A stretch of 61,137 nt of DNA from a virus. Taxonomy: Duplodnaviria > Caudoviricetes. Below the pieces are notes generated by a model that ran no database searches, was not told where the DNA came from, and saw nothing but the letters and a program-made list of their open reading frames with translations. The stretch is from the IMG/VR virus record IMGVR_UViG_3300020732_000001, positions 1-61,137 of that record. The stretch is one strand, 5' to 3'. Shown one piece after another: positions 24,007 to 41,882 of the stretch. The translations under genes were made by a program, and so were the position numbers. The stretch's first letter is position 1. Each line of letters starts with the position of its first letter.

Positions 24007-24057
24007 TTGACATGATTCATTATATCATGCAAACTATAGTCTGATTAACTGCTAGGA
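24007..24057 (+). promoter_or_regulatory. Sigma70-like promoter followed by AACTGCTAGGA leader motif
   Basis: TTGACA 24007-24012; -10 candidates CAAACT or TATAGT; motif at 24047-24057. Confidence 0.6.
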
Positions 24058-24065
24058 AAATCAAA

Positions 24066-24284: not shown

Positions 24285-24292
24285 GAGAAGAT

Positions 24293-25455: not shown

Positions 25456-26214
25456 ATGGTTTATCAAAAACTAATTAAAGCAAGGAATATGCTCCGTAAG
25501 TTAGAGCTGAAGAAGTCAGGGCATAACAAGTTTGCAGGTTATAACTACTTTGAGCTTGGCGATTTCTTGCCTTATGTTCAGGCAATATTCGAAGAAATAG
25601 GGCTTTGTGATGTTATTTACTTTGACAAAGATATGGCTTATATGAATATCTTTGATACAGAAGATGGATCGTTTGCATTGTTTACTTCACCGATGGGTTC
25701 TGCCCAGTTAAAGGGTTGCCATGAAGTGCAGAATATTGGAGCAGTAGAAACATATCAAAGACGTTATTTGTATGTAACTGCAATGGCTATTTCTGAGCAT
25801 GATCCAATTGATGCCACGATGAATCCCAATGATTCTCACCTTAACAATGCAAAGGTGACAGAAAAACCTACTGAAAACAAACATTTACAGTTCCAAGTTG
25901 GCGAAGAAAAAGTAACTTTGAAAGCTGTTCCTAGAACAGAACCTAAGATGGTCAGCAAGATTACAGGCGATAAGGGTGAGTTTCAAATCATTATTGATCC
26001 ACCACCAGAGGGAGATATTAAAGACTGGTTAGGGTTGGTTCAACAAGCTTCTCATATGTTATTGGATTTATGTGAGAAGGAGGCAGATGTGATGGCCATA
26101 TTTAGAAAAAACAAAGTTCTATTTGATACGGTCAAAGCTAAGGATCCTGAATTCTTTGCAGGAATGATGGGTAAATTTACGTTAATGAGAGAAAAGCTGA
26201 AGGAGAAGAAGTAA
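25456..26214 (+). CDS. ERF-like single-strand annealing protein
   Basis: KKSGHNKFAGYNYFELGDF..QNIGAVETYQRRYL; next to the exonuclease. Confidence 0.75.
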   Translation: MVYQKLIKARNMLRKLELKKSGHNKFAGYNYFELGDFLPYVQAIFEEIGLCDVIYFDKDMAYMNIFDTEDGSFALFTSPMGSAQLKGCHEVQNIGAVETYQRRYLYVTAMAISEHDPIDATMNPNDSHLNNAKVTEKPTENKHLQFQVGEEKVTLKAVPRTEPKMVSKITGDKGEFQIIIDPPPEGDIKDWLGLVQQASHMLLDLCEKEADVMAIFRKNKVLFDTVKAKDPEFFAGMMGKFTLMREKLKEKK

Positions 26215-26468
26215 TGGCATATGAAAATAAACCACAGACAGGGAGTCTGTTTCCTAATCAAAAAAAATCAGAAAGTCATCCTGATATGAAGGGTGATGTG
26301 TATTTAGATAAAACATTTCTAATTGAGATGATGGATAAGTCAAAAGGAAATTTAGTGAAGATTTCTTTGGCGGCATGGAAAAAAGAATCTTCAAAAGGGC
26401 TTAAGTATTTGTCAATGACATTATCTGAGCCATATGAAAAACCTGCTAACAATAACCCATGGGAGTAA
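26214..26468 (+). CDS. Putative ssDNA-binding (DUF736-like) protein
   Basis: GSLFPN..HPDMKG..AAWKK..KYLSM and PW tail; follows the SSAP gene. Confidence 0.55.
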   Translation: MAYENKPQTGSLFPNQKKSESHPDMKGDVYLDKTFLIEMMDKSKGNLVKISLAAWKKESSKGLKYLSMTLSEPYEKPANNNPWE

Positions 26469-26470
26469 TC

Positions 26471-26797
26471 ATGACTGAAAAACGCAGAGGTAGACCAAGA
26501 AAGATTAAAAATAATAAAGCAAATATGGCTATTGATCTTTTAAAACAAATGGCTATACATGTTCCAATCAATCAAGAAACATTTAATGAAGCCGTAGAAA
26601 AAATGGTTGCCGAAGATAAAAAAGTGGATTGGGAAGAACTGGCGAAGAAACAAGAGAATCAAATGCAAGTGTTGCGTAATGAAAATGAAGATCTTGCCAA
26701 GATTTGTGTGGATCGTTGGGAAAAGATTCAAGACAAAGAAAAGATTATTAAATACTTGGAGGGCAGAATTGAAAACCTTGCAATTCGAAGCCGTTAA
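26471..26797 (+). CDS. Coiled-coil protein with N-terminal AT-hook
   Basis: KRRGRPRK after RBS GGGAG. Confidence 0.6.
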   Translation: MTEKRRGRPRKIKNNKANMAIDLLKQMAIHVPINQETFNEAVEKMVAEDKKVDWEELAKKQENQMQVLRNENEDLAKICVDRWEKIQDKEKIIKYLEGRIENLAIRSR

Positions 26798-27191
26798 GGT
26801 TGCTCTCAAGCAAGATAAGACTGGCTACGTTTTAACATTGTCTATGCATCCTGACGAGATTCCTGAAGACCTGATGCGTGACTATGTTGGGGCAAGATAT
26901 CAATGTGTCCTAGTCAGGCTAGATGGCAATGAGCAGCCAATGGATAAAGAGCAAGAGTTTGCTGGTGATCGTGCTGTTCGTATTGCTGGCTTGCTTGGGC
27001 GAGATCCTATTTTTTGGAAGTATCTGTATGACCAGGAACAGATTTTTGATGAGAGTGGCGAAGAAGCAGTTGAGTATATTCGCAACTATTTGAATCTTGA
27101 ATCAAGGTCAGAGTTAAAGACTAACCGAGAAGCACAGATACTATTAGATAAACTTTATAGAGAGTACCAAGCATGGATACAAAAAAACTAG
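26769..27191 (+). CDS. Hypothetical protein
   Basis: ORF track; probable TTG start at 26769. Confidence 0.65.
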   Translation: MKTLQFEAVKVALKQDKTGYVLTLSMHPDEIPEDLMRDYVGARYQCVLVRLDGNEQPMDKEQEFAGDRAVRIAGLLGRDPIFWKYLYDQEQIFDESGEEAVEYIRNYLNLESRSELKTNREAQILLDKLYREYQAWIQKN

Positions 27192-27454
27192 TACCGTATT
27201 CTGTTTACCTGCCAATTGAACATCATACTAAGTTAAAAGAGTTTGCAAAAGATCGTCAAGCTTCTGCATTAATTCGTGATGCAATTGGTATGTTGGTAGA
27301 TGGAACGGATGTATTTAGGACAGGCTATAACAAAGGCATTAGAGATGCAGCCAAAGTTATTTATGACTGTGAGGAAGCCCAGATGATTGCCATCAAAGGT
27401 AAAGACTTGGGCGTTGTTTTATCAGATCGCATTAAAGAGTTGGAGGTCAAATGA
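27173..27454 (+). CDS. Putative ribbon-helix-helix DNA-binding protein
   Basis: YSVYLP..H.KLK..A..SALIRDAI pattern. Confidence 0.5.
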   Translation: MDTKKLVPYSVYLPIEHHTKLKEFAKDRQASALIRDAIGMLVDGTDVFRTGYNKGIRDAAKVIYDCEEAQMIAIKGKDLGVVLSDRIKELEVK

Positions 27455-27870
27455 ATATTAAGCCACACCCAATGAGCAAGATTAAGAAAGAAGAATGGAT
27501 TATTTTGCGTTTATTGTATTTGATTGTGTCGCTTGATCCTACGATGGTGCGTGTCAAAGATGTTGAACGATCTATTAAGTATATAGATAAGAAATACAGA
27601 AACATTGAAGGTTTTTCTATTGTCCAGGCGTTTAATCTCCTGAAGAAAGAACATGGCAAAGAGGATACCTTTAACGATATTGGTATTACTTTGATTAGTA
27701 ATTTGCAAAAACAAGTAAATGTTCATCGTGAGTATATTGATGAAGAACAGAAAGAATTTATGCAGCGTAGAGTATTTGGTGTGCAATACCATCCACAATC
27801 TACGAAGAGTGCCATAGTGCAAGACATCATTGATGCAGAAAATATGAGATTAGGAACTCAAAATGGATAA
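27451..27870 (+). CDS. Hypothetical protein
   Basis: ATGA coupling, ORF track. Confidence 0.65.
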   Translation: MNIKPHPMSKIKKEEWIILRLLYLIVSLDPTMVRVKDVERSIKYIDKKYRNIEGFSIVQAFNLLKKEHGKEDTFNDIGITLISNLQKQVNVHREYIDEEQKEFMQRRVFGVQYHPQSTKSAIVQDIIDAENMRLGTQNG

Positions 27871-28132
27871 TAAAGAATTTATTAATAAGGTATTAGAAGA
27901 AGATCGTAAGAAAGAAACTGATCCATCAAGGATTATTGCATTAGAGATCTTCAACTTACTAGCACCCAAAGCCGAGCAAGAAGCCAGCGTGATTCTAGCT
28001 GGTGTATCAATGGTTTTGGCTACGATGGCAGTTGAGATGGGAATCGAAGAAGAGAAAGCCGTTTATGCGTTTAGAAGGTCTTATGCGAATGCTCATAGGC
28101 GTTTAAAACAATTAATCAAACAGGTGCACTAA
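27863..28132 (+). CDS. Hypothetical protein
   Basis: ORF track, RBS. Confidence 0.65.
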   Translation: MDNKEFINKVLEEDRKKETDPSRIIALEIFNLLAPKAEQEASVILAGVSMVLATMAVEMGIEEEKAVYAFRRSYANAHRRLKQLIKQVH

Positions 28133-28461
28133 TGTATATTGCTAATGCAACAATTGAAAGTACAATGCTTGGCATAGAAGACCATGGAATTATGTCATTT
28201 AGTTTAACGCTTATATATGGTGGTGGTTATGGACAAGGCTTTGGTGGATATGCTTTAGATGGCAAAGGCGGAGAACAAGGACATGCTAAGAGCATTCTAT
28301 GTATTCGAAAGATTATTGAAACAGTTGGTGTTGAAAAATGGGAAGATTTGCGAGGTAAATATATTCGAATAAAAAAATCATCCGAACATACAGGCACTAT
28401 TGATGAGATAGGAAACATTATGGATGAAAAATGGTTCAACATTAAGGAGTTTTGGCAATGA
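28132..28461 (+). CDS. Conserved phage hypothetical protein
   Basis: NATIESTMLGIEDHGI..QGFGGY..GVEKWEDL. Confidence 0.7.
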   Translation: MYIANATIESTMLGIEDHGIMSFSLTLIYGGGYGQGFGGYALDGKGGEQGHAKSILCIRKIIETVGVEKWEDLRGKYIRIKKSSEHTGTIDEIGNIMDEKWFNIKEFWQ

Positions 28462-28658
28462 CAAAAAAAATGAAAGCATTTCCACAAAGAGTAAGTACCG
28501 AATATCAATATCAAGTTGAACATGGCATGGATTTAAGAGATTACTTTGCTGCTAAAGCTATGCAAAAAATGATATGGGAAAAAGGTCAAGACTTAGAAAA
28601 TGCAAAAGACTGTTATGTAATAGCAGATGCCATGATGAAAGCAAGACAAAATGACTGA
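28452..28658 (+). CDS. Hypothetical protein (GMDLRDYFAAKAM type)
   Basis: Widespread phage motif ending in ADAMM. Confidence 0.7.
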   Translation: MAMTKKMKAFPQRVSTEYQYQVEHGMDLRDYFAAKAMQKMIWEKGQDLENAKDCYVIADAMMKARQND

Positions 28659-28842
28659 ACAAGATCAAGAGCATACCAAGATACTCTTTGCCATAATGAT
28701 TACTAATGGCTTATTGTCCAGGCTAGATCCAAAAGAAATTGATCCTGTGGACATCTGGGAGCTGGCAGATGCATTAATGGAAGCAAAGAATCATGTATCT
28801 GCTGGTCTTCCTCCAATTAAGAGAAGGAGAAGGCATGAGTGA
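28651..28842 (+). CDS. Hypothetical protein, distantly similar to the preceding gene
   Basis: FA..GL..LADALM pattern. Confidence 0.6.
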   Translation: MTEQDQEHTKILFAIMITNGLLSRLDPKEIDPVDIWELADALMEAKNHVSAGLPPIKRRRRHE

Positions 28843-28993
28843 TAGAAGATATTGCTCTTCCTGTGTAACCTATCAGCCAGTAGAAGGTGGAATGTTAGTA
28901 GATACGGCAAACAAAAGTGTAAGAAGATGGAAGTGTGCAACATGTTTAAAAAAATTAAGTGAACGAAAATTGCAATCAAGAGGAAAAAAATGA
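28835..28993 (+). CDS. Small Zn-ribbon protein
   Basis: CSSC...CATC; RBS AAGGAG. Confidence 0.6.
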   Translation: MSDRRYCSSCVTYQPVEGGMLVDTANKSVRRWKCATCLKKLSERKLQSRGKK

Positions 28994-29169
28994 AAACATT
29001 TGCTTTATTGGTATCGGTTAGCCTTTGTGGTTGGATTATTTTCTTTACCGAACTTGCTCGTAAGGAAGCAGTGTATGACTGCCATATGGTTAGTTACCCT
29101 ATGGCGATTGATGTCCCTAAAGAAGTTATTGCACAATGCAGACAGAAAGGAATATGGGTGGTGAAATGA
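28990..29169 (+). CDS. Small membrane-anchored protein (59 aa, not in ORF track)
   Basis: ATGA coupling at both ends; MKTFALLVSVSLCGWIIFF... Confidence 0.6.
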   Translation: MKTFALLVSVSLCGWIIFFTELARKEAVYDCHMVSYPMAIDVPKEVIAQCRQKGIWVVK

Positions 29170-29525
29170 AAGAAAGGTTATGGGATTTTTTGGGTGATGC
29201 CGTAGATATTGTTGGAGGAATAATTTTATCTGTATTACTTGTGGTTTCATTGTTTTGTGTTGTTGGTGGACTTATTTATTGTGCTTGGCTTTTATTATTA
29301 AATCCTCAAGATAAAGAAGCACGTAGGCAGGCTGAAATAGCCGAAGCTACACCACATAAGTACGCAGAAGTTGATGGTTGTACTGTTTACACATGGTATG
29401 CAAATGGTAGGAATCATTACTTTACGAAATGCCCAACAAAAGTAACAACAGAAAGTAGGTACAGTGAATATTGTGGTAAGGCTTGCAGCAAAGAACGTAG
29501 TGAAATAATTGAAACGGAGAGATAA
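29166..29525 (+). CDS. Membrane-anchored hypothetical protein
   Basis: TM segment, then EVDGCTVY..HYFTKC. Confidence 0.65.
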   Translation: MKERLWDFLGDAVDIVGGIILSVLLVVSLFCVVGGLIYCAWLLLLNPQDKEARRQAEIAEATPHKYAEVDGCTVYTWYANGRNHYFTKCPTKVTTESRYSEYCGKACSKERSEIIETER

Positions 29526-29747
29526 ATGACAGACGAACAAATGAAAGAGTTGGCTGAACTGCGTGTAGCCATACAAGATTTAAAGTATCAGTTGATACAA
29601 AAGCATGACTTGCGTGAACTTACTGATGAGGAAATATGCAAACTGTGGGCAGAATCACATGAAGACAGTATTGCTATGCAACAAGGATTTACTACCCAAC
29701 AACATTATTTTGCACATTTAATACTAAAGAAAGCGAGTGAGAAATGA
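29526..29747 (+). CDS. Cassette gene (RELTDEEI..KKASEK family)
   Basis: Ends in the junction repeat. Confidence 0.7.
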   Translation: MTDEQMKELAELRVAIQDLKYQLIQKHDLRELTDEEICKLWAESHEDSIAMQQGFTTQQHYFAHLILKKASEK

Positions 29748-29932
29748 GAACAATTGCACCAACAAATAGATTGCGTTTTGTTGAAAGAGTAATTCCTAGC
29801 CATGATGTTGAGGCAGGTTACAAAGTAAAAATACTTCAACAGTGGTGGAATTATCAAATATTATCAGACAATTCTGGTTGGATTCCTATTGAGGGTGGTG
29901 AATGGCGTGACGTACCTTTAGAAAGCGAGTGA
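29744..29932 (+). CDS. Cassette gene (W.DVP..ESE family)
   Basis: Starts and ends within junction repeats. Confidence 0.7.
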   Translation: MRTIAPTNRLRFVERVIPSHDVEAGYKVKILQQWWNYQILSDNSGWIPIEGGEWRDVPLESE

Positions 29933-29935
29933 GAA

Positions 29936-30082
29936 ATGACAGAAGACCAAGAAGTTAGAGAATGGATGGGTTGGTATCTAGAAAAGCCAATAAATGTTTA
30001 TGAAGTTTATGGCGATGCACTTGAATTTACGGCAGAAGAAAAATCTATGACTGCAATACTAAAGAAAGCGAGTGAGAAATGA
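29936..30082 (+). CDS. Cassette gene, 48 aa (not in ORF track)
   Basis: MTEDQEVREW...AILKKASEK; bounded by repeats. Confidence 0.7.
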   Translation: MTEDQEVREWMGWYLEKPINVYEVYGDALEFTAEEKSMTAILKKASEK

Positions 30083-30753
30083 GTCATTACGGCAAATGTA
30101 AACATGGCATTTATTTAGGGGGTTGTCGTGAATGTTTTCCTTTGCCTAAATTAACAAAAGTTGGGGAAGAACTTATTCAAGAATTAGTAGAGTGTTTTAA
30201 TGAGGATAAAGAAATGACCGCAAATGAACTAGCAGATTTAAATGAATGGTCTTGTTGTGCTCAAAGTAAACAAGTTTCTGCCATGCTACGTCAACAAGCC
30301 AAAGAAATTGAAGAGTTAAAAGAACGCTTAGAAGAAACTCGTCAGTTGTATTTAAAGCAATTAGCCATCACCCATTCTGACACCCAATCACACCCAATTG
30401 AACCAGTGGCAATGCGTTATGACTTTGATGGATATGGATATATGTATATTGACTCAGGTTCAGGAAGTGATTGGCAAACAAGAAAGAAGGGTGAATTCCT
30501 TTACACCAAGCCATTCTTTAGTCAAAAACCTGTTGCCATGATGGTTAAAATGGATGGGTTTGATAAACCTGAGTTTACTACAATTTGTGGTTCTGCTGCG
30601 TTAAAACATCCTAACTATACTGCATTGTATGACCACCCAATGCGTGAACTAAGTGATGAGGAAATACAAGATTTATGGGCGGAGATGGATTGGAGTGGAC
30701 ATCCTGAACTTGAATTTGCGAGAGCAATACTAAAGAAAGCGAGTGAAAAATGA
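30079..30753 (+). CDS. Mosaic cassette gene
   Basis: Contains MTANEL..LRQQ, RELSDEEI and EFARAILKKASEK modules; internal RBS and ATG at 30214. Confidence 0.7.
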   Translation: MSHYGKCKHGIYLGGCRECFPLPKLTKVGEELIQELVECFNEDKEMTANELADLNEWSCCAQSKQVSAMLRQQAKEIEELKERLEETRQLYLKQLAITHSDTQSHPIEPVAMRYDFDGYGYMYIDSGSGSDWQTRKKGEFLYTKPFFSQKPVAMMVKMDGFDKPEFTTICGSAALKHPNYTALYDHPMRELSDEEIQDLWAEMDWSGHPELEFARAILKKASEK

Positions 30754-30899
30754 TATTAACTGGATTTTTATTTGCTATTGGTGCAACACTTGGAACATTA
30801 TTAACTTGGGTTACAATCAGCAAAATTGAACAAATGTATTCCGATTGGCAATACAAAAAGCGTTGGGATGCAATTAAAAAGAAAGAGAATGAGAAATGA
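30750..30899 (+). CDS. Cassette gene, 49-aa membrane peptide (not in ORF track)
   Basis: MILTGFLFAIG...KKKENEK; bounded by repeats. Confidence 0.7.
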   Translation: MILTGFLFAIGATLGTLLTWVTISKIEQMYSDWQYKKRWDAIKKKENEK

Positions 30900-31357
30900 C
30901 TTTAAATGACCTAATTAACAGGCTTGAGCAAATGAACCAAAACCATACATCAATTGGTTGGGAAACACTACAATTTGTAGCACCTTTGCTACGTCAACAA
31001 GCCCAAGAAATAGCAATGCTTAAACAAATCATTGATGCAAACAATTTACAGTTAAATATTGGACAGTTGAAAAAAGAACTAGCATTACAAAGACTATCTG
31101 ATTTTAGTCAAGAGATTGAGGATAGGGAATCTGCTATATACGCAACTGGCTATTGGAATGGTATTCAAAAAACCAAAGAAAAGAATGAAACATTAGATAC
31201 AAGGTCTTATTTGATTGGTAGATACGATAAGCTGCGTGAACTTACTGATGAGGAAATATTAGATTTATGTCCACCAAATCATTCTGAAATGATGAATGAA
31301 TCATACACAATTGAATTTGCAAGAGCAATTGAATCATATTTAAAAGGTGAAAAATGA
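30896..31357 (+). CDS. Mosaic cassette gene
   Basis: LRQQ, RELTDEEI and EFARAI modules. Confidence 0.7.
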   Translation: MTLNDLINRLEQMNQNHTSIGWETLQFVAPLLRQQAQEIAMLKQIIDANNLQLNIGQLKKELALQRLSDFSQEIEDRESAIYATGYWNGIQKTKEKNETLDTRSYLIGRYDKLRELTDEEILDLCPPNHSEMMNESYTIEFARAIESYLKGEK

Positions 31358-31533
31358 AAATGGAAATGCGTTGGTATAAATATTACATACCCTCAACAGG
31401 AAATACTGCTCTTACCTATTCTGAATCTAAAAAACTTCAATATAGGTATCAATATGACCCACCAGACTCACCTTATCCACAAAAATGGTGGACTGATTGG
31501 ATTGATGTGCCAACAATTGAAGAAAGCGAGTGA
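31354..31533 (+). CDS. Cassette gene, 59 aa (W.DVP..ESE family; not in ORF track)
   Basis: MKMEMRW..LQYR..WIDVPTIEESE. Confidence 0.7.
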   Translation: MKMEMRWYKYYIPSTGNTALTYSESKKLQYRYQYDPPDSPYPQKWWTDWIDVPTIEESE

Positions 31534-31536
31534 TAA

Positions 31537-31836
31537 ATGAGTAATATAGATGATTGGGCATGGAAAATCATTCGTGCTTGTGGTTTATCAACTGCCAATT
31601 CTGATATTAATGTTTTTAAATTACATGAATATATTTCAGAGATGATTTACACACCTCGATTTAAAGAATTTCCTGTTGGCAATTTTGTTATGCGGTTTTA
31701 CAAAACAGACCATGTATGGACTTGCACAGTTACAGAAGATATGTTGGATGAAGCAATTAAAATTGCAAAACCATTGTCAGAAGAATATATTCAATCAGAA
31801 TGGGAAAGACTTGGAAAGAAAGCGAGTGAGAAATGA
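31537..31836 (+). CDS. Cassette gene ending KKASEK
   Basis: Bounded by repeats. Confidence 0.7.
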   Translation: MSNIDDWAWKIIRACGLSTANSDINVFKLHEYISEMIYTPRFKEFPVGNFVMRFYKTDHVWTCTVTEDMLDEAIKIAKPLSEEYIQSEWERLGKKASEK

Positions 31837-32085
31837 TGGATTGGTATTTATCTGGAAGATGTTTAAAACACCCAATGGTTGTAGCAGTTATTTTTTATAC
31901 GTTGGGTTATTTTGTGGGTAAAGGATAAAAATGACAGAATATATTGAGTTTATGTGGTTAAGTTTGTTTTTAATTGGTATTGCCATTGGTGTTGTTTTAA
32001 GGAGAAAGAAATGAAATATAGTGATGAATGGTGGAAAGAAGTTGATTTATTAAACAGATCTTTTCCTTTTGGGTGGTGGAAATGA
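31833..32085 (+). CDS. Three coupled micro-ORFs: 31833-31928 (31 aa), 31931-32014 (27 aa), 32011-32085 (24 aa)
   Basis: Consecutive stop/start coupling; two are hydrophobic. Confidence 0.5.
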
Positions 32086-32327
32086 CTGAATTTGAAGACA
32101 AAGTAATTGAGCTTTTAAGTATTATTGCTAATCAAGATCGAAAACCTTTTGGTCCAGAATGGTGGAAAGGCGATCCGACTTTTGGTGGATTGAAAGTATC
32201 TACTCTTTCTTACGATGAGATTAATCAATTGGCTGGTCAATATTTACAGGTAGTTCCTCTTGGATCAAGCCATGCCGTATTAGGAGTTGTAGAGTTTGCT
32301 CGTGCCATTGAAAAAAAATTGAAATGA
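32082..32327 (+). CDS. Hypothetical protein (LSYDEI..EFARAIE)
   Basis: ATGA coupling; shares a C-terminal module with the cassette genes. Confidence 0.65.
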   Translation: MTEFEDKVIELLSIIANQDRKPFGPEWWKGDPTFGGLKVSTLSYDEINQLAGQYLQVVPLGSSHAVLGVVEFARAIEKKLK

Positions 32328-32812
32328 AAATAGAATTAAATCGTCATGAAATGTTAATGTGCGAATTATTTGGTTCTATTCGCAGAAAAAACGCTATGCA
32401 ATTTAATTATGATCGCCAGGTCAGCAAACAAGATCCATATGACATGGACATTGATGGTTTTATGGGAGAGTTTGTAGTAGCCAAATATTTAAATATTATG
32501 GTAGATACTTCAATCAATGAAAAAAAGAATCCAACAGATTTATATTTCAATGCTTATTCAGTAGATGTAAAGACTACTCGTAATCCAAAAGGTGGAGTTT
32601 ACGTCACAGAATATCATCGTAAATCGCCATGTGATTACTATATACAAGTTGTAATTAATGGTAATGTTGGTCATATAACTGGCTGGATTGATAAATATGA
32701 TTTATTTTCCAAAGCTGAATATATATCTGGATCTCATCCATCTTATAAATTAAATCAAGAAAATCTTTTACCTATAGAATTACTATATGTACCGAAACAA
32801 ACAACTTCTTGA
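32324..32812 (+). CDS. Putative PD-(D/E)XK nuclease-like protein
   Basis: GFMGEFVV..D..VDVKTT. Confidence 0.55.
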   Translation: MKIELNRHEMLMCELFGSIRRKNAMQFNYDRQVSKQDPYDMDIDGFMGEFVVAKYLNIMVDTSINEKKNPTDLYFNAYSVDVKTTRNPKGGVYVTEYHRKSPCDYYIQVVINGNVGHITGWIDKYDLFSKAEYISGSHPSYKLNQENLLPIELLYVPKQTTS

Positions 32813-33083
32813 ACTGGTTCGTGTTATTCCTTGTCAAAACTGTGGCCTACAGGATGGAACGGTGGTCGCTGCTCATTCTAATCAACTTCGAGATGGTAAA
32901 GGTCGTGGAATCAAAGCTCACGATTATAGGGTGGCAGCTTTATGTTACAAATGCCATAGTGAATTAGATCAAGGTAATAGACTTTCTAAAGAAGAACGAG
33001 TAGAAATGTGGGAAGAAGCCCACAGAAATACGATTGGTTGGTTATTTGAAAATGATTATGTTAAAATTTGTTTAGTTCCTTAA
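32787..33083 (+). CDS. DUF1364/HNH-like Zn-binding protein
   Basis: PCQNCG..VVAAHSN..GRGIK..LCYKCH..D. Confidence 0.7.
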   Translation: MYRNKQLLELVRVIPCQNCGLQDGTVVAAHSNQLRDGKGRGIKAHDYRVAALCYKCHSELDQGNRLSKEERVEMWEEAHRNTIGWLFENDYVKICLVP

Positions 33084-33110
33084 TTTGAGTTATGTCTTGT
33101 TCTGGAATTA

Positions 33111-33152
33111 GAGCTAGGTTTGGGTTACCGCCCTGTCTAGCTCGTTTTTTTT
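33111..33152 (+). terminator. Rho-independent terminator of the recombination/accessory operon
   Basis: GAGCTAG..CTAGCTC stem followed by a T8 run. Confidence 0.75.
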
Positions 33153-33191
33153 GAGGTTCGATTTTTAGTGCCACAGCCAAAAAACAATATG

Positions 33192-33221
33192 TTGACACTT
33201 TTTTAAAATTTCGTCTATACT
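33192..33221 (+). promoter_or_regulatory. Near-consensus sigma70 promoter driving sRNA-1
   Basis: TTGACA-18 nt-TATACT. Confidence 0.8.
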
Positions 33222-33227
33222 TAGTGG

Positions 33228-33354
33228 GTACACCCCATGTACTACCGTCACCGTGACGCATAAACTCCTAGCAGGGTTAATCAAAACTGACGGTAGGATC
33301 CTCCCTGATCCCTCCCCAGAACCCTAGACTAATCATCTGGGGTTCTTTCTTTTT
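33228..33354 (+). ncRNA. Putative trans-acting antisense sRNA (sRNA-1)
   Basis: Own promoter and terminator, no credible ORF. Stems GTACA/TGTAC, CTACCGTCA/TGACGGTAG and GGATC/GATCC. The loop carries the complement of the leader motif. Confidence 0.7.
33318..33354 (+). terminator. Rho-independent terminator of sRNA-1
   Basis: AGAACCCTAGA/TCTGGGGTTCT (1 G-U) followed by TTCTTTTT. Confidence 0.75.
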
Positions 33355-33358
33355 GTGC

Positions 33359-33392
33359 TTGCAAAATATTTTAAAATGGTTTAATCTATAAT
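33359..33392 (+). promoter_or_regulatory. Sigma70-like promoter driving RNA-2
   Basis: TTGCAA-17 nt-TAATCT, overlapping a TATAAT at 33387-33392. Confidence 0.65.
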
Positions 33393-33395
33393 CTC

Positions 33396-33865
33396 AACTG
33401 CTAGGAGTGCGTCACGGAATGAATCAACTCCGTGATAACAATTTGTGTATTTTGTATATACGTTAATTTAACGTGTATAGATTTATGCCATTTTGTTTAC
33501 GCACTCCTAGCACGATGATTTAGGTCTATCGGTCTGAGTATGTGTGAAAGTTGCCCTTGAAGTTGAGTAGAACGGCAAAAAGACATACGTTTACGTTCTT
33601 CCTAAATTAGCGTGATAGTGAGCAAAGAAGATTGTTTAGGCTCAAGGTGTGGAAGCGTGGTCTTTACTCTGTCTGAGAACGATTGAGAACAATAGAGATC
33701 ATTCGGTGACACTTAAACGAACTCGTAGTACAGAGTAGAAAGCACCGATGTGTGAACTAGACTACCAATGGTTCATTAACTTGATATGAAGTAAGCGACC
33801 GAAAGGATATCGAGTTGAGTTTTCCTTCAATCCCATGCTGTGGGGTTGGGGGAAACCTCACTTTC
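33396..33865 (+). ncRNA. Large multi-stem structured RNA or 5' leader (RNA-2)
   Basis: At least 8 helices with many plus-strand G-U wobbles; no long ORF. Confidence 0.65.
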
Positions 33866-33894
33866 AATTTCGTTTCGCTCCCTCAAGGATATAT

Positions 33895-34101
33895 ATGAAA
33901 GAAATCGTAGAACAGAGAATTAAAGAGTTGGAACGGTTGGTTGAGATCACACCGATAAATAAGAGTTTCAGTCTTCAGTCGAGACTGGTTGAGGCGAAAC
34001 ATATCTTAGATCTAATTAATCAAGAAGAGAAGTATGTATCAGAAAGTGTAATGAATGAAATACAAGATGCTTTATATGGAAAAATGAAAGGAAAGAAATG
34101 A
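33895..34101 (+). CDS. Hypothetical protein
   Basis: RBS AAGGA before ATG 33895. Confidence 0.65.
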   Translation: MKEIVEQRIKELERLVEITPINKSFSLQSRLVEAKHILDLINQEEKYVSESVMNEIQDALYGKMKGKK

Positions 34102-34415
34102 CAGTAAATGAACTTGTAGATAAGTTAAGAAGTGTAAGTATTAGATTATTGGGTAAAGAAACTGAGCAAGCAGGTAGAGCTATTATCCTCTACAGAGAAT
34201 CAGCGATTATGCTACGCCAACAAGAAGCAGAATTGACTGAAGCAGGACATATGATTGGTGTATTACGAGAAGAAATTAGTTTGTTGAAAGAAGAAATAGA
34301 AGTGTTGAAACCATATAAAGAAAAGATTGAAATGATGGAACAAGCCTATGATGCCCATATTAAAAAATCAATGGGTGAGGTTAAAGACCTTATAAAGAAA
34401 GCGAAGGGAAAATGA
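34098..34415 (+). CDS. Coiled-coil protein related to the cassette family (MTVNEL..LRQQ..KKAKGK)
   Basis: Shared modules and a degenerate junction repeat. Confidence 0.65.
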   Translation: MTVNELVDKLRSVSIRLLGKETEQAGRAIILYRESAIMLRQQEAELTEAGHMIGVLREEISLLKEEIEVLKPYKEKIEMMEQAYDAHIKKSMGEVKDLIKKAKGK

Positions 34416-34627: not shown

Positions 34628-34654
34628 TATACTGAAATTTCCAACTGCTAGGAG
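34625..34654 (+). promoter_or_regulatory. Extended -10 promoter followed by AACTGCTAGGAG leader motif
   Basis: TGaTATACT 34625-34633; motif at 34643-34654. Confidence 0.6.
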
Positions 34655-37834: not shown

Positions 37835-38048
37835 CTCGTTCTCTGGTCACACCAAAGCGAGATCCTACCTCGTTTAAAGTGTGACCTTCAGCTCGCAATC
37901 GCATCATCTGCCAGTATTTTTCTTTAAGATCATCCCTGTTTTTATAAAGACTAAAAAAGACTTCCTTCGTAGGGAAGTCCACCAATTTGTAGGGATTGTT
38001 ACCACCAACAAAAATCGGCACTCTGCCACCACATTGACTAAAATTCAT
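37770..38048 (-). CDS. Sigma-70 region 4-like HTH protein
   Basis: TLNEVGSRFGVTRERVRQIEAR. Confidence 0.8.
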   Translation of the reverse strand: MNFSQCGGRVPIFVGGNNPYKLVDFPTKEVFFSLYKNRDDLKEKYWQMMRLRAEGHTLNEVGSRFGVTRERVRQIEARFLRLLASSLKPVKP

Positions 38049-38205
38049 GGGGATCAACCTCGCAGTAATCAAAATCAACAACTTCTTCGCCTTTGTTTAA
38101 TTCAAGTTCATCCCAAGCATACTCTTCAGGATCTTCGCCATTTGGCACATCCACAGTAATGGTAACTTCTCTTTTAAGGTAATAAGTTACATCATATCGT
38201 TTCAT
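38038..38205 (-). CDS. Small acidic protein, 55 aa (not in ORF track)
   Basis: RBS GGAGG; MKRYDVTYYLKREV... Confidence 0.65.
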   Translation of the reverse strand: MKRYDVTYYLKREVTITVDVPNGEDPEEYAWDELELNKGEEVVDFDYCEVDPHEF

Positions 38206-38384
38206 GCTTCCTCCACATTATCGCCAAGTGTTTCAGAATAATGCTCGATTAAATGATCAGGCTTTTTACATTCATAATACTTCGCCTGTCCCTTGTCAAA
38301 AGCATCCTCTCTGTTATTTGCTTTGACATAGAACCCAAGTGTCTGGGTGACTTCTTGGGTAAATTCAACTAAATAGGTTTTCAT
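38202..38384 (-). CDS. Hypothetical protein
   Basis: ATGA coupling. Confidence 0.65.
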   Translation of the reverse strand: MKTYLVEFTQEVTQTLGFYVKANNREDAFDKGQAKYYECKKPDHLIEHYSETLGDNVEEA

Positions 38385-38650
38385 GCCGCCTCCCTTTCTC
38401 TTAAAACTGCATCCACCAAATACTCAAATGTTTCCCAGTTCAACCCAATGTTGGCATCAAGATTTCTTTTTGCTCGTCTGAGGACTTCTCTGCGTTCATC
38501 ATCAGTTAAATCGTCACCATCACAGACCTCGCCCACATCATCAATGTGCCACCAGTCGCTAATCCAGTTTGGATCAGTCAAGCGTTTAATGTCATCCACA
38601 GTAGGAACGGCTTGACCATCTGGCAAATCGAATTCAATCATTACTCGCAT
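38381..38650 (-). CDS. Hypothetical acidic protein
   Basis: WHIDDV..LTDDE..EVL..IGLNWE. Confidence 0.7.
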   Translation of the reverse strand: MRVMIEFDLPDGQAVPTVDDIKRLTDPNWISDWWHIDDVGEVCDGDDLTDDERREVLRRAKRNLDANIGLNWETFEYLVDAVLREREAA

Positions 38651-38853
38651 ACAACCTCCACAATTCTAAATTCATCATAGGAATAAGGTTCTTCTAAATT
38701 CCCCTCTTGGTAATCGGCAATCGTGTCCTCAATAAAATCTTTGAGTTCAGCCTCTGCCTGTTCTTTCGTTTCATAAACAGTCGGCATACCTGTCTGGGCA
38801 TCATGCCAGACATTCTCCCAACCATAGACAAACTCTTGTTCAACAATAAACAT
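38641..38853 (-). CDS. Hypothetical acidic protein
   Basis: Start ATG 38853 follows AACTGCTAGGAG. Confidence 0.7.
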   Translation of the reverse strand: MFIVEQEFVYGWENVWHDAQTGMPTVYETKEQAEAELKDFIEDTIADYQEGNLEEPYSYDEFRIVEVVCE

Positions 38854-38860
38854 ATCATTT

Positions 38861-38929
38861 CTCCTAGCAGTTAAACGATTGCAAAATGGCAATCCCAATG
38901 CCCAATTAAGGGCATCAGGATTACAGCAC
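38861..38929 (-). promoter_or_regulatory. Intergenic hairpin element plus leader motif (copy 1)
   Basis: Long hairpin, then GATTGC/GCAATC hairpin, then AACTGCTAGGAG. Confidence 0.65.
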
Positions 38930-39118
38930 TTACCAATGCACTTGACTGTCTAAATCTTTGACATCTACATAGTCCTCTGCCCTTCTAAAAGAACCTATGT
39001 AAAAAGGATAACTATCTACTGTTCCCATATCACTATTCTTTAAACATTGAACAACATCAAGTAATGCAGTTTCTAATGATTCAATATCAGCAAAATACAT
39101 TTTGATTTCGAGTTTCAT
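38930..39118 (-). CDS. Hypothetical protein
   Basis: RBS GGAGG. Confidence 0.65.
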   Translation of the reverse strand: MKLEIKMYFADIESLETALLDVVQCLKNSDMGTVDSYPFYIGSFRRAEDYVDVKDLDSQVHW

Positions 39119-39810
39119 AAATCCTCCAATTCTGCATACTCTCGTTTAGATTCTTCCAACTCTTTTAACAATCTGGCTTTGTCTTTTTCTTCTGCCGTTT
39201 CGAGCTCTTTTTCAATCGCCTCAATTTCAGTTAAAAGATCATCCATTTTGTATTCTTTGATACTGTCGGAGATTCCGTATTGATCATCAATGTTTTTAGG
39301 TATGTTATTACGCACCCATTGAACATCATTTTGAATGTCATAACATTCTTCTAAATCGTTTTCCCAATAGCCACAGAACCCCATACCACCTTCATAATAG
39401 GTGGCTGAGACATCATAGCCTTGCTCAACAAGTTTTTGATAAATGCCACAGGGAGGACTCCAAGCCGTAGAACAATAAAAAGAAATGGTGTTTTCATTCG
39501 CCTCAAGATCGTAAGGTTTATTTTCGTAAACTGTTTCAATCTCCCATTTCGTGCCCCAATGCTGAACCCTCCAGTCCCACCAATTATCAGGCTTGATGGT
39601 CGGCTGATAGGCTAGAGCCTTTTCCTCTTCGGTCTTAGCATACTTCGCTACGATCTCTGGGTAGGTCTTTTTAACAGGAGTAACTGAGTAGTCTGGCTCT
39701 GGGTATATCGTGCCAAAGAACTTCCCTTCATTCCAAGCAGTTACTAATTTCTGAATCTTCTCTGGGTTATCGTGTGAGATAACTACATTGTTTTCGCACC
39801 AATTAGGCAT
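39115..39810 (-). CDS. DUF1281/YubB-like (MPNWC) protein
   Basis: MPNWCEN, WWDWRVQHWGTKW, TAWSPP, YYEGGMGFCG. Confidence 0.8.
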   Translation of the reverse strand: MPNWCENNVVISHDNPEKIQKLVTAWNEGKFFGTIYPEPDYSVTPVKKTYPEIVAKYAKTEEEKALAYQPTIKPDNWWDWRVQHWGTKWEIETVYENKPYDLEANENTISFYCSTAWSPPCGIYQKLVEQGYDVSATYYEGGMGFCGYWENDLEECYDIQNDVQWVRNNIPKNIDDQYGISDSIKEYKMDDLLTEIEAIEKELETAEEKDKARLLKELEESKREYAELEDL

Positions 39811-39991
39811 ATCTTTTTACCTCCTCTATTTCAGTTATTTGAAAATCATGTCCATCTGTTACATCACCATAATCGAAGTCGATTTCTCCGTCATAAATCA
39901 TTTTTTTGATTTGATCGACAGATTCACCTTCCACTTCTTTCATGTAATAAACTACCTCACTTGCGAAAGCATAAAATTTAGGCATTTGCAA
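39803..39991 (-). CDS. Hypothetical protein
   Basis: ORF track. Confidence 0.6.
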   Translation of the reverse strand: MQMPKFYAFASEVVYYMKEVEGESVDQIKKMIYDGEIDFDYGDVTDGHDFQITEIEEVKRYA

Positions 39992-40142
39992 TTTCCTTCC
40001 ATAATTCGTATGTTTGTTTTAATTTTGAATTGTCCATTTTCCAAAGTTTTTTTAAATATTCTTCAACGTCATTTAACTGTTCGATTGGATAAATTGATTT
40101 CATCATCCAAAATATTTCAAATTGATATTCATAATTACTCAT
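39978..40142 (-). CDS. Small hypothetical protein, 54 aa (not in ORF track)
   Basis: RBS GAGG; MSNYEYQFEIFW... Confidence 0.55.
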   Translation of the reverse strand: MSNYEYQFEIFWMMKSIYPIEQLNDVEEYLKKLWKMDNSKLKQTYELWKEIANA

Positions 40143-40350
40143 TTTGATATTCCTCAAAAAGTTTTGTTAAATGAATTTCAAGATAATGTAATTTACTAAT
40201 CTGTTCATCACAAAAATCTTGCATATCGTTAAATTCATTAAATCCATCTAATTTCATTCCTCTTAAATAAGTGTGTTTATCTAAGTTAATTAAATCAAAA
40301 TAGATTTCATTTACAGTTTCTAATAAAAGATTTTCAATCGACATTTTCAT
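40135..40350 (-). CDS. Hypothetical protein (AT-rich)
   Basis: RBS GAGGAG; start at 40350 or 40344. Confidence 0.6.
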   Translation of the reverse strand: MKMSIENLLLETVNEIYFDLINLDKHTYLRGMKLDGFNEFNDMQDFCDEQISKLHYLEIHLTKLFEEYQNE

Positions 40351-40877: not shown

Positions 40878-40885
40878 TTTTTAAA

Positions 40886-40960
40886 CTCCTAGCAGTTAAA
40901 GTTAATGATTGCCGAAAATGACAATCCCTAAACCCTCTAGAGAGGGCTTAGAGGTGGCAC
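40886..40960 (-). promoter_or_regulatory. Intergenic hairpin element plus leader motif (copy 2)
   Basis: Same layout as 38861-38929. Confidence 0.65.
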
Positions 40961-41799: not shown

Positions 41800-41808
41800 G
41801 TTTTTAAA

Positions 41809-41882
41809 CTCCTAGCAGTTGGTTAAAAATTGTGTCATGTATTGACCTCTTGATTTTCTTCTAGTGGTGTATTGACTGTCAA
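41809..41882 (-). promoter_or_regulatory. Divergent promoter region with direct repeats and leader motif
   Basis: Minus-strand TTGACA 41882-41877; TGTATTGAC at 41838 and 41868; CTCCTAGCAGTT 41809-41820. Confidence 0.55.

What the first reader, a model, noticed from the sequence alone, without database searches (positions are those of the whole stretch)
33192..33354. Phage sRNA whose loop is antisense to a shared leader/RBS motif: candidate RNA-only master repressor
Seen: a self-contained unit with promoter TTGACA-18-TATACT, about 125 nt of non-coding sequence and an intrinsic terminator, with another terminator just upstream. The 9-bp stem CTACCGTCA/TGACGGTAG presents a loop containing TAAACTCCTAGCAG (33261-33274). 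This is a perfect 14-nt complement of the leaders of the minus-strand genes at 41799 and 40877 (sites 41805-41818 and 40882-40895). It is a 9-11-nt complement of CTGCTAGGA(G) at 24049, 33398, 34645 and 38861. At five of these sites the pairing covers the Shine-Dalgarno of the first gene. The sixth is the 5' end of RNA-2. The other single-stranded parts (CCCCA, CTCCCT, CTCCCC) are also anti-SD-like. Known analogies are the P1 C4 and P4 CI antisense immunity RNAs, which act on few targets. Inference: one sRNA silences the recombination, replication and early operons together, as an early-to-late, immunity or carrier-state switch, in a phage with no CI repressor or integrase.
Basis: partly seen in the sequence, partly recalled or inferred. 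Interest (0 to 1): 0.9.

Follow-up and report, generated by a model that had tools for sequence, protein, structure and literature searches.

The report
Phage antisense sRNA with swappable specificity
An uncultivated group of water phages carries a small structured RNA whose unchanging loop is complementary to a sequence at the start of all their early operons, and whose fast-changing arm matches a neighbouring RNA ahead of the replication genes, so it probably acts as an RNA-only switch.

Summary
Positions 33228-33354 encode a ~127-nt non-coding RNA (sRNA-1). It has a near-consensus sigma-70 promoter, four helices and an intrinsic terminator.

- **Family.** By eye it is in 30 of 37 related phage contigs; a covariance model finds it in 24 of 37. 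Covariation is strong: 98% of cells pair, and 23 of 27 pairs show compensatory changes.
- **Loop.** The core CCTAGCA is invariant in 22 distinct sequences, against a mean column identity of 48%. It complements a clade-wide leader box, AACTGCTAGGAG.
- **Box.** It covers the Shine-Dalgarno of the first gene of five non-structural operons. It also forms the 5' end of the adjacent RNA-2.

The main new result concerns RNA-2, a Y-shaped ~116-nt RNA at the head of the ParB-like/helicase/primase module.
- The variable arm of sRNA-1 co-varies with the 5' end of RNA-2. Cognate duplexes average -32.2 kcal/mol and non-cognate -21.8; 0 of 100,000 permutations reach the observed sum.
- RNA-2 masks the same site with its own 3' anti-box.
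- These segments are hypervariable (25-74% identity) inside 95-100% identical flanks.

Best reading: a trans-antisense regulator similar in logic to P1 c4 and P4 CI but unrelated to them. It would act first on nascent RNA-2 and second on box-bearing ribosome sites. Expression and regulatory outcome are untested, and the "master repressor" role is only partly supported.

The parts
33110..33152 (+). Terminator-like inverted repeat plus T8, ending the upstream + strand operon (last gene is the HNH endonuclease at 32787-33083)
   Evidence: Read. HNH assignment. This ~110-nt stretch is absent in L004, L006, L009 and L037, where the HNH gene runs up to the sRNA promoter.
33192..33221 (+). sRNA-1 promoter: TTGACA, 18 nt, TATACT
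   Evidence: 11 of 12 matches. The same near-consensus promoter scores 11/12 in 19 of 22 distinct relatives and >=9/12 in 20 of 22.
33228..33354 (+). sRNA-1, about 127 nt. P1 is 33228-33242. P2 basal stem is 33242-33250 with 33288-33296. P3 is 33296-33311. The terminator is 33318-33346 plus a U tract.
   Evidence: Fold z = -4.66. Model R1 finds one copy per genome in the window and 24 of 37 loci at E<=0.013. On 19 sequences 98.0% of cells pair, 23 of 27 pairs carry double changes, and 0 of 500 shuffles reach this.
33261..33274 (+). Apical loop and seed TAAACTCCTAGCAG. The core CCTAGCA (33267-33273) is invariant, and CUAG fits a YUNR loop.
   Evidence: CCTAGCA is invariant in 22 distinct sequences at 48% mean column identity. 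Its probability of being unpaired is 0.50-1.00 in all 22.
33249..33260 (+). Variable specificity arm of sRNA-1, which pairs with 33408-33417 of RNA-2
   Evidence: I9: 10 nt, 100% complementary. Covariation with RNA-2. Hairpin 2 is 35-63% identical among phages whose flanks are 95-100% identical.
33359..33387 (+). RNA-2 promoter: TTGCAA, 17 nt, TAATCT
   Evidence: Read. Conserved in the alignment. In 17 of 17 phages tested the box core lies 37-47 nt after the sRNA-1 terminator.
33395..33513 (+). RNA-2, a Y-shaped RNA (116 nt from the box, 33398-33513). The 5' box A is 33398-33407 with a variable part 33408-33417. Hairpin A is 33412-33435. The 3' anti-box B2 is 33499-33513 and closes the structure.
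   Evidence: MFE -51.0 kcal/mol. Arms 33399-33412 and 33499-33512 are 100% complementary over 14 nt (I3). On an unfitted MAFFT alignment of 9 sequences 97.7% of cells pair and 12 of 20 pairs show compensatory changes. The start coordinate is approximate.
33514..33894 (+). ORF-free stretch between RNA-2 and the first small gene. It is probably leader RNA; its function is unknown.
   Evidence: No ORF >=40 aa up to 33834; the listed ORF from 33835 has no evident SD, and an in-frame ATG at 33895 follows AAGGA, so the gene probably starts there (my reading). 99-100% identical in L002, L004, L006 and L037. Fold z is only -1.76. No iterons.
24049..24058 (+). Leader box (CTGCTAGGAA) before the first gene of the recombination operon (exonuclease 24408, Erf 25456)
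   Evidence: Cofold ddG -11.4; 7 of 400 random windows are as good.
34645..34654 (+). Leader box before the ParB-like gene (34660), helicase (35514) and primase (36998)
   Evidence: ddG -12.5; 4 of 400 windows as good.
38861..38870 (-). Leader box before a minus-strand small-gene cluster
   Evidence: ddG -13.2; 4 of 400 windows as good.
40882..40895 (-). Leader box with a 14-nt match to the loop, before a short ORF starting at 40877
   Evidence: ddG -18.5; 0 of 400 windows as good.
41805..41818 (-). Leader box with a 14-nt match to the loop, before the gene 41365-41799
   Evidence: ddG -18.7; 0 of 400 windows as good.

Best explanation
sRNA-1 is a trans-acting antisense RNA made by host RNA polymerase from its own strong promoter and ended by its own terminator. 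The parts below are ordered from shown to inferred.

1. **Shown by comparison.** It is a real structured RNA family on the + strand. Its apical loop is invariant and complementary to the leader box AACUGCUAGGAG.

2. **Shown by covariation.** The arm just 5' of the loop co-evolves with the first ~20 nt of RNA-2, whose promoter starts a few bases after the sRNA-1 terminator. RNA-2 heads the ParB-like/helicase/primase module. It hides the same 5' segment in a closing stem with its own 3' anti-box (B2). sRNA-1 and B2 therefore compete for one site.

3. **Inferred.** sRNA-1 catches RNA-2 while it is being made, before B2 exists. This blocks the Y-fold and changes the fate of the transcript running into the replication genes, by decay, termination or loss of a 5' protective fold.

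4. **Inferred, less certain.** The same loop covers the Shine-Dalgarno of the other box-bearing leaders and lowers their translation.

5. **Inferred.** The hypervariable, horizontally exchanged arm/target pair sets a specificity. Only a cognate sRNA-1 shuts a given phage's replication module. This is the logic of heteroimmunity, or of plasmid incompatibility.

My odds: point 1, 0.93; point 2, 0.8; point 4, 0.5; point 5, 0.4.
For: **Family and structure**
- By eye, sRNA-1 is in 30 of 37 helicase-linked loci, as 22 distinct sequences. Model R1 recovers 24 of the 37 at E<=0.013. It also matches 18 of the 80 pattern-found loci that I searched, out of 120 returned.
- On 19 sequences 98.0% of cells pair, 23 of 27 pairs carry double changes, and 0 of 500 shuffles reach this. 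Slid controls pair at <=46%.
- G-U cells in P3 and P4 are valid only on the + strand.
- The promoter scores 11/12 in 19 of 22.

**Loop and box**
- CCTAGCA is invariant at 48% mean column identity and mostly unpaired.
- TGCTAGG has 146 unique contexts in the window plus 37 loci. In 88 a start codon follows within 4-12 nt and opens an ORF of >=40 aa. The consensus is aaCTGCTAGGAgaa.
- In the window the box precedes only non-structural operons.

**RNA-2**
- The structure is supported on an unfitted alignment: 97.7% paired, 12 of 20 pairs compensatory.
- The window duplex is 33251-33274 with 33398-33417, 20 target nt with a small bulge (I6 and I9). Its energy is -38.4 kcal/mol.
- The adjacent RNA-2 5' end is the best own-locus target in 10 of 16 relatives and second best in 2 more.
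- Across 13 specificity types cognate duplexes average -32.2 and non-cognate -21.8 kcal/mol. The cognate is best in its row in 10 of 13 and in its column in 11 of 13. None of 100,000 permutations reaches the observed sum. With the invariant core removed the means are -15.5 and -8.1, again 0 of 100,000.

**Specificity islands**
- Hairpin 2 is 35-63% identical, the RNA-2 variable part 55-74% and the B2 variable part 25-62%. Flanks are 95-100% and the downstream non-coding stretch 99-100% identical.
- L037 and L011 carry identical hairpin 2 and identical RNA-2 5' parts on diverged backbones.

**Energetics with self-structure**
- Nascent RNA-2: ddG -17.6.
- Leaders: -18.7, -18.5, -13.2, -12.5 and -11.4.
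- 400 random windows: mean -3.7, sd 2.9.

**Context**
- No terminator-like site lies between RNA-2 and the ParB-like leader in L015.
Against: - There is no expression evidence at all. No RNA run was listed for this sequence.
- Fully folded RNA-2 gains nothing from binding sRNA-1 (ddG 0.0). Action on RNA-2 therefore requires a co-transcriptional window, which is assumed, not shown.
- Three of the six sites (24049, 34645, 38861) share only 9-10 nt with the loop and fell outside the top 20 of 15,276 windows in the plain duplex scan.
- Loop and box are both invariant, so the leader interaction has no covariation support.
- The leaders conserve AA just 5' of the box, and the window's sRNA-1 does not pair with it. 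Something else also constrains the box.
- In 4 of 16 relatives (L016, L025, L028, L029) no adjacent RNA-2 was among the top four targets.
- L035 carries a poorly matched pair (-22.9 kcal/mol).
- In L008 and L013 a non-cognate partner scored slightly better than the cognate one.
- Alignment A5 was fitted to the model, which favours pairing counts.
- The two partners are physically linked, so the permutation test shows maintained complementarity, not function.
- A strong constitutive promoter driving a repressor of the phage's own early genes needs a timing or dosage argument that I cannot test.
- The host is unknown. Its anti-SD sequence, Hfq and RNase III are therefore unknown too.
Confidence: 0.6

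Rival explanations
1. The five mRNA leaders are the main targets. sRNA-1 is a global translational repressor of all early operons, as an early-to-late or carrier-state switch, and RNA-2 is one target among six.
For: The box is at the ribosome site of the first gene of each non-structural operon and absent from structural operons. Two leaders have 14-nt perfect matches and the best cofold ddG values, -18.7 and -18.5. In L004 the 3' side of the loop matches leader flanks over 12-13 nt; this is my reading.
Against: This version does not explain the hypervariable arm or its covariation with RNA-2. It also does not explain RNA-2's own anti-box. Three leaders have only 9-10-nt matches.
Confidence: 0.15
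2. One long cis-acting leader. Transcripts from the sRNA-1 promoter read through the terminator. The arm and RNA-2's 5' end then pair within one molecule as an attenuator or riboswitch-like element. No trans action is involved.
For: The partners are only ~125 nt apart on the same strand. P4 CI RNA and its targets likewise come from one transcript (passage in PMC4825925).
Against: The terminator is strong (11 pairs plus U tract) and conserved with covariation. A separate conserved promoter sits 37-47 nt upstream of the RNA-2 box core in 17 of 17 phages.
Confidence: 0.1
3. A DNA-level element. The three box copies in 33265-33513 and those at promoters are oriented binding sites for a phage protein such as the ParB-like protein, or they are parts of a replication origin. 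Under this view the RNA folds are incidental.
For: Three copies cluster within 250 bp just upstream of the replication genes. The ParB-like gene lies next door. ParB-family global repressors are known (KorB, recalled from memory).
Against: The box is not a palindrome, and 88 of the 146 unique TGCTAGG contexts are in sense orientation just before an ORF start; most of the rest are the sRNA-1 and RNA-2 copies. Four helices outside the box covary, with G-U pairs valid on one strand only. Promoter and terminator are conserved. The copies differ by bulges. No iterons were found.
Confidence: 0.07
4. sRNA-1 has another job, such as a protein-binding or decoy RNA. Its complementarity to the leaders is then a side effect of sharing the box with RNA-2.
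For: The P1 loop (C-rich) and the P3 stem (GGATC/GATCC) are conserved for reasons that the antisense model does not explain.
Against: This gives no account of the covarying arm. The loop is the only invariant internal segment.
Confidence: 0.06
5. The site is the leader of a minus-strand gene. On the minus strand the box is followed by ATG and a 66-aa ORF (33261..33061).
For: GGAG-TTT-ATG on the minus strand, followed by a 66-aa ORF.
Against: The SD-ATG gap is only 3 nt, against 5-9 nt at real leaders. An ORF of >=30 aa after the box is present in only 7 of 22 distinct relatives, with different start codons and spacings, and is absent in 15. Most of the ORF lies in DNA that is missing from L004, L006, L009 and L037. 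Compensatory stem changes are not expected in coding sequence.
Confidence: 0.02

Closest known systems
c4 antisense RNA of phages P1 and P7
   Same: A small structured phage RNA whose loop sequences pair with a nearby, non-overlapping target around a ribosome site. Specificity variants with matched changes give heteroimmunity (passage in review PMC12197685).
   Different: No Rfam match. sRNA-1 has its own promoter and terminator and is not cut from the target's leader; c4 processing is recalled from memory. It has one apical loop plus an arm. The target masks itself with a 3' anti-box. The loop also matches five other operon leaders. The phage has no recognisable repressor or integrase among the ORFs scanned.
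CI immunity RNA of satellite phage P4 (seqA/seqB/seqC)
   Same: An RNA-only control of replication genes that uses three mutually complementary short segments in one non-coding region (passage in PMC4825925).
   Different: In P4 one antisense segment pairs with two sense sites and causes premature termination. Here one sense site (RNA-2 5' end) has two antisense partners (sRNA-1 and B2). No sequence or model similarity was found. The outcome here is unknown.
Plasmid copy-control antisense RNAs (ColE1 RNA I/RNA II, R1 CopA/CopT)
   Same: A loop-initiated attack on the nascent 5' part of a longer RNA that governs replication. Variable loops and arms define incompatibility groups. Both points are recalled from memory.
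   Different: Those RNAs are transcribed from the opposite strand of their target. sRNA-1 lies upstream on the same strand, so complementarity must be maintained by co-evolution.
T4 RegB and RegA
   Same: Phage-encoded shut-off of many early mRNAs by acting on their translation initiation regions. RegB cuts GGAG Shine-Dalgarno sequences and RegA occludes start sites (passages in PMC3014915).
   Different: Those are proteins. Here the proposed agent is an RNA that reads an extended 10-14-nt box.

Membership tests
Rfam-described RNA families (including the c4/CI-type antisense RNAs) | Match to a curated covariance model | tested here: not met
   0 matches at gathering score in the whole window. 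At E<=10 over 33100-33900 there were only three chance-level hits at E 1.2-1.5: two plant miRNA models and NsiR1 on the terminator.
P1/P7 c4-type immunity RNA | Antisense segments complementary to a nearby non-overlapping target in the same phage | tested here: met
   33251-33274 pairs with 33398-33417 (I6 and I9; -38.4 kcal/mol).
P1/P7 c4-type immunity RNA | Specificity variants with matched changes in RNA and target (heteroimmunity) | tested here: met
   13 types. The cognate partner is best in 10 of 13 rows, and 0 of 100,000 permutations reach the observed sum. Whether this gives immunity was not tested.
P1/P7 c4-type immunity RNA | Released by processing from the leader of the operon it controls (recalled from memory) | tested here: not met
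   Own promoter in 19-20 of 22 relatives and own covarying terminator. Processing itself is not testable here.
P4 CI RNA | One antisense element pairing with two flanking sense sites to cause transcription termination | tested here: not met
   The arrangement is inverted: one sense site and two antisense elements. The termination outcome cannot be tested here.
cis-encoded plasmid or phage antisense RNA | Transcribed from the strand opposite its target, so perfectly complementary | tested here: not met
   Both RNAs are on the + strand, ~44 nt apart.
trans-acting base-pairing sRNA (generic) | Own promoter, Rho-independent terminator, and a conserved accessible seed | tested here: met
trans-acting base-pairing sRNA (generic) | Detectable transcript and target regulation; chaperone dependence | not testable with these tools
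   No RNA run was listed. The host is unknown.
YUNR recognition loop of antisense RNAs (definition recalled from memory) | Y-U-N-R at the 5' side of a small apical loop | tested here: met
   The loop is CUAGCA in predicted 6-nt loops in most of the 22 folds. A U-turn geometry is not testable here.

The most novel reading that the evidence does not exclude
A protein-free, two-RNA control module specific to an uncultivated aquatic phage clade. A constitutive sRNA and a self-masking leader RNA form a co-evolving lock-and-key pair that gates the replication module. The same invariant loop reads a shared 5'-UTR box on every early operon. The lock-and-key pair is exchanged between phage backbones as a specificity cassette. 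This would set up RNA-based heteroimmunity or incompatibility groups among phages that have no repressor or integrase.
Probability: 0.3. Interest if true: 0.85.

Novelty: new variant of a known kind. Interest (0 to 1): 0.72.

Why it matters
RNA-only immunity is known from very few phage systems (P1/P7 c4 and P4 CI), all from enteric hosts. This would be an unrelated family found purely in metagenomic phages.

It has two layers. One is an invariant seed aimed at a clade-wide early-operon box. The other is a hypervariable, horizontally swapped specificity pair aimed at the replication leader.

It gives a testable case of how related phages could tell self from non-self at the RNA level. It also offers a ready set of natural orthogonal sRNA/target pairs: at least 13 types were seen here.

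Finally, it shows that some conserved 'RBS motifs' in phage genomes may be regulatory addresses and not just strong ribosome sites.

Tried and rejected
- **Rfam** at gathering and relaxed thresholds gave nothing meaningful.
- **Megablast** of 32800-34200 against isolated phages found no match. An exact 22-mer scan of viral contigs returned 0.
- **ARAGORN** found no tRNA or tmRNA.
- **RNA-seq:** no RNA holder was listed.
- **MAFFT alignments** of all 22 sRNA-1 sequences (A1) and of six (A2) misaligned the variable stems. RNAalifold on A1 recovered only the terminator. I therefore built model R1 from three well-aligned sequences.
- **Duplex scan with the whole 54-nt hairpin** was noisy, with long weak duplexes. 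It was replaced by the apical 31 nt and by cofold with self-structure.
- **Outgroup isolates** were MW202426, MW574966, OR003939 and MN698241. TGCTAGGA occurs 0, 1, 1 and 0 times in them, and R1 has no hit at E<=1. The system is not general to the wider group.
- **Host or prophage search.** One strict pattern scan of genome contigs gave 3 stretches, and none matched R1. The two that I read lie in what looks like protein-coding sequence of one MAG. L164 was not read. No second genome scan was allowed.
- **N4-like virion RNA polymerase with hairpin promoters.** This idea was recalled from memory. The 3158-aa ORF has no PHROG hit, so it was neither supported nor excluded, and I dropped it.
- **Minus-strand 66-aa ORF:** rejected.
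- **Small ORF inside RNA-2** (15 aa in the window): start and stop are not conserved in relatives, by my reading. Rejected.
- **Origin-like iterons or a strongly structured downstream RNA** in 33514-33894 were not found.
- **Box as an extended complement of the 16S 3' end:** only AGGAG fits the canonical anti-SD sequence, which I recalled from memory. The host rRNA is unknown.
- **Literature.**
  - The box or its complement appears in 87 papers. The 10 listed were unrelated eukaryotic work, seen as a listing only.
  - A term search for phage sRNA, early genes and leader motif listed nothing comparable; I saw listings and abstracts only.
  - For PMC12197685, PMC4825925 and PMC3014915 I read passages only.
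  - Supplements were not consulted.
Full report
**What the window is.** The window is a complete 61,137-bp virus record with direct terminal repeats and 38% G+C.

PHROG scans give this layout:

| Region | Strand | Content |
|---|---|---|
| 41957 round to 23658 | + | Structural and packaging genes: TerS, TerL, portal, head, tail, endolysin |
| 24066-33083 | + | Recombination/early operon: exonuclease, Erf, HNH |
| 33084-33894 | – | Non-coding region |
| From 33895 | + | Three small genes, then ParB-like protein, helicase, primase |
| 38038-41799 | − | Cluster of small unknown genes |

- No integrase or repressor family appeared among the 50 ORFs scanned against PHROGs.
- The nearest isolated phages by terminase are only ~57% identical. 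They are phage 023Pt_psg01, two Pelagibacter phages and DSL-LC04.
- The host is unknown.

- Promoter, stem, loop, terminator and all complementary sites are at the stated coordinates.
- The 10-mer box is enriched: 8 hits at <=1 mismatch against 2.1 expected, and 0 of 100 shuffles reached 8.
- The RNA folds better than all 200 shuffles (z = -4.66).

**It is a conserved, structured RNA family.**
- A helicase query brought 37 related contigs at 65-81% protein identity.
- By eye, 30 of the 37 carry the same unit just upstream of the ParB-like/helicase genes.
  - In 5 of the other 7 the contig ends before that place.
  - L031 and L033 hold the region but gave no convincing copy.
- The 22 distinct sequences share five elements:
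  - a promoter that is near-consensus (11/12 matches) in 19 of the 22;
  - a 5' hairpin;
  - a variable second hairpin;
  - a GGATC/GATCC hairpin;
  - a terminator.
- Model R1, built from three sequences, found exactly one + strand copy in the window and in 24 of 37 loci at E<=0.013. It also matched 18 of 80 further contigs recovered with a loop-plus-P3 pattern, some of them new. I searched 80 of the 120 stretches returned.
- On 19 sequences, 98.0% of cells form standard pairs and 23 of 27 pairs show changes on both sides. No shuffle in 500 reached this, and slid controls paired at 21-46%.
- That alignment is fitted to the model, which favours pairing. The size of the effect and the many pair types still make the structure secure.
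- G-U cells in P3 and P4 would be A-C mismatches on the other strand, so the + strand is the RNA.
- The minus-strand 66-aa ORF that starts just after the box exists only in the window and its 98% twin L002. Across 22 relatives an ORF of >=30 aa follows the box in 7, with differing start codons and spacings.

**The loop and the box.**
- In a 22-sequence alignment with 48% mean column identity, the only invariant internal columns are CCTAGCA. Its predicted unpaired probability is 0.50-1.00 in all 22 folds, usually as a 6-nt apical loop CUAGCA.
- The complementary TGCTAGG occurs in 146 unique contexts in the window plus 37 loci.
  - In 88 a start codon follows within 4-12 nt and opens an ORF of >=40 aa. 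The consensus is aaCTGCTAGGAgaa.
  - Most of the rest are the sRNA-1 and RNA-2 copies or leaders of shorter ORFs.
- In the window the box stands before the first gene of each non-structural transcription unit and nowhere in the structural region.
- Four outgroup phages have neither box enrichment nor an R1 hit.
- Loop and box are therefore co-conserved and clade-specific. Because neither varies, they give no covariation.

**RNA-2 and the covarying arm.**
- A second conserved promoter (TTGCAA, 17 nt, TAATCT) follows the sRNA-1 terminator directly. It places the box at the very 5' end of RNA-2.
- RNA-2 (33398-33513) folds into a Y at -51.0 kcal/mol. Its closing stem pairs the 5' box plus a variable extension with a 3' anti-box (I3).
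- On an unfitted MAFFT alignment of 9 sequences, 97.7% of cells pair. 12 of 20 pairs have compensatory changes, and the covariation score is 0.64 against 0.24 in shuffles (0 of 500).
- The upper 5' arm of sRNA-1 is complementary to the same RNA-2 segment. In the window, 33251-33274 pairs with 33398-33417 at -38.4 kcal/mol.
- In 17 of 17 phages examined a GCTAG[G/C] core lies 37-47 nt after the sRNA-1 terminator. It forms a 17-27-bp duplex with the cognate sRNA-1.
- Scanning each of 16 relatives' own loci, that adjacent site was the best target in 10 and second best in 2. It was not in the top four in L016, L025, L028 and L029.
- Across 13 specificity types:

| Measure | Cognate | Non-cognate |
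|---|---|---|
| Mean duplex energy, whole segment (kcal/mol) | -32.2 | -21.8 |
| Mean duplex energy, invariant core removed | -15.5 | -8.1 |

  - The cognate partner was best in 10 of 13 rows and 11 of 13 columns.
  - None of 100,000 permutations reached the observed sum, with or without the invariant core.
- Exceptions: L008 and L013 score marginally better with a foreign partner. L035 carries a poorly matched pair (-22.9 kcal/mol).

**Specificity islands.** I compared the window with L004, L006 and L037, and those three with each other.

| Segment | Identity |
|---|---|
| Promoter + P1 | 95-100% |
| 381-nt downstream non-coding stretch | 99-100% |
| Hairpin 2 of sRNA-1 | 35-63% |
| RNA-2 variable part | 55-74% |
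| Variable part of the anti-box (B2) | 25-62% |

- L037 and L011 have identical hairpin 2 and identical RNA-2 5' parts, while the DNA between and around them is clearly diverged.
- This pattern is expected of a matched specificity pair under diversifying selection and horizontal exchange.

**Energetics and mechanism.** Cofold counts each RNA's own structure.

| Target | ddG (kcal/mol) | Random windows at least as good (of 400) |
|---|---|---|
| Leader at 41818 | -18.7 | 0 |
| Leader at 40895 | -18.5 | 0 |
| 60-nt nascent RNA-2 | -17.6 | 0 |
| Leader at 38870 | -13.2 | 4 |
| Leader at 34645 | -12.5 | 4 |
| Leader at 24049 | -11.4 | 7 |
| Fully folded RNA-2 | 0.0 | 376 |

- Random windows had mean -3.7 and sd 2.9.
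- A plain duplex scan with the apical 31 nt ranked RNA-2 second, after the sRNA's own antisense strand. The 41818 leader ranked third and the 40895 leader fifth. The other three leaders were outside the top 20.
- I therefore propose that sRNA-1 competes with RNA-2's own anti-box for the nascent 5' end of RNA-2.
  - This would divert the transcript that continues towards the replication genes. No terminator-like site separates RNA-2 from the ParB-like leader in L015.
  - The same loop would, more weakly, cover the Shine-Dalgarno of the other early leaders.
- Which molecular outcome follows (decay, termination or loss of a protective 5' fold) is not determined.

**Comparison with known systems.**
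- The logic matches P1/P7 c4: loops pairing with a nearby non-overlapping target, and heteroimmune variants (review passage).
- It also matches P4 CI: RNA-only control of replication genes through three complementary segments (passage).
- There is no model match to any Rfam family.
- The RNA has its own promoter and terminator.
- The sense/antisense arrangement is the inverse of P4.
- It is not cis-encoded as plasmid copy-control RNAs are.
- As a possible shut-off of early translation it parallels the proteins RegB and RegA of T4 (passages).
- I file it as a new variant of phage antisense regulation.

**Limits.**
- Everything rests on sequence comparison.
- The host is unknown. One strict scan of 185,579 species genomes gave only hits that did not match the model; the two that I read look like coding sequence.

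Noticed in passing
window 14182-23658 (+): A 3158-aa ORF at the end of the structural block has no PHROG match at E<=0.001. The neighbouring 891-aa ORF (11496-14171) has none either.
   Followed up: partly
window 33514-33894: A 381-nt ORF-free stretch after RNA-2 is 99-100% identical in four relatives whose sRNA-1 arms differ widely. It is only weakly structured (z = -1.76). Relatives carry at least two other alternative conserved sequences at this place.
   Followed up: partly
window 38871-38900 and 40896-40953 (-); many sites in L003-L022: Minus-strand boxes are preceded by small conserved hairpins. One type is GATTGC-CATTTT-GCAATC. In relatives there are 4-bp stems with GAGA loops followed by TCTTTGA..AAC. 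They could be processing sites, terminators or promoter parts.
   Followed up: no
window 33507-33524 with 33601-33618: The 3' anti-box of RNA-2 can alternatively pair with a downstream segment (18 nt, 83% complementary, I1). This hints at a conformational switch when the 5' end is taken by sRNA-1.
   Followed up: no
L035:3485-3700: This contig combines one sRNA-1 arm type with the RNA-2 5' end of another type (L014/L015). The pair matches poorly (-22.9 kcal/mol). It is either a recombinant or an escape variant.
   Followed up: partly
window 33296-33311 and relatives: The P3 stem keeps GGATC/GATCC, that is two GATC sites, in most relatives, while its loop varies freely. The reason is unknown.
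   Followed up: no
window 33084-33190: The window and L002 have about 110 extra bases with a terminator between the HNH gene and the sRNA promoter. In L004, L006, L009 and L037 the HNH reading frame runs up to the promoter.
   Followed up: partly
window 845-1336, 32787-33083, 47713-48123: There are two HNH endonuclease genes, one beside the tail-fibre gene and one just upstream of sRNA-1. There is also a GroES-like co-chaperonin gene in the head module.
   Followed up: no
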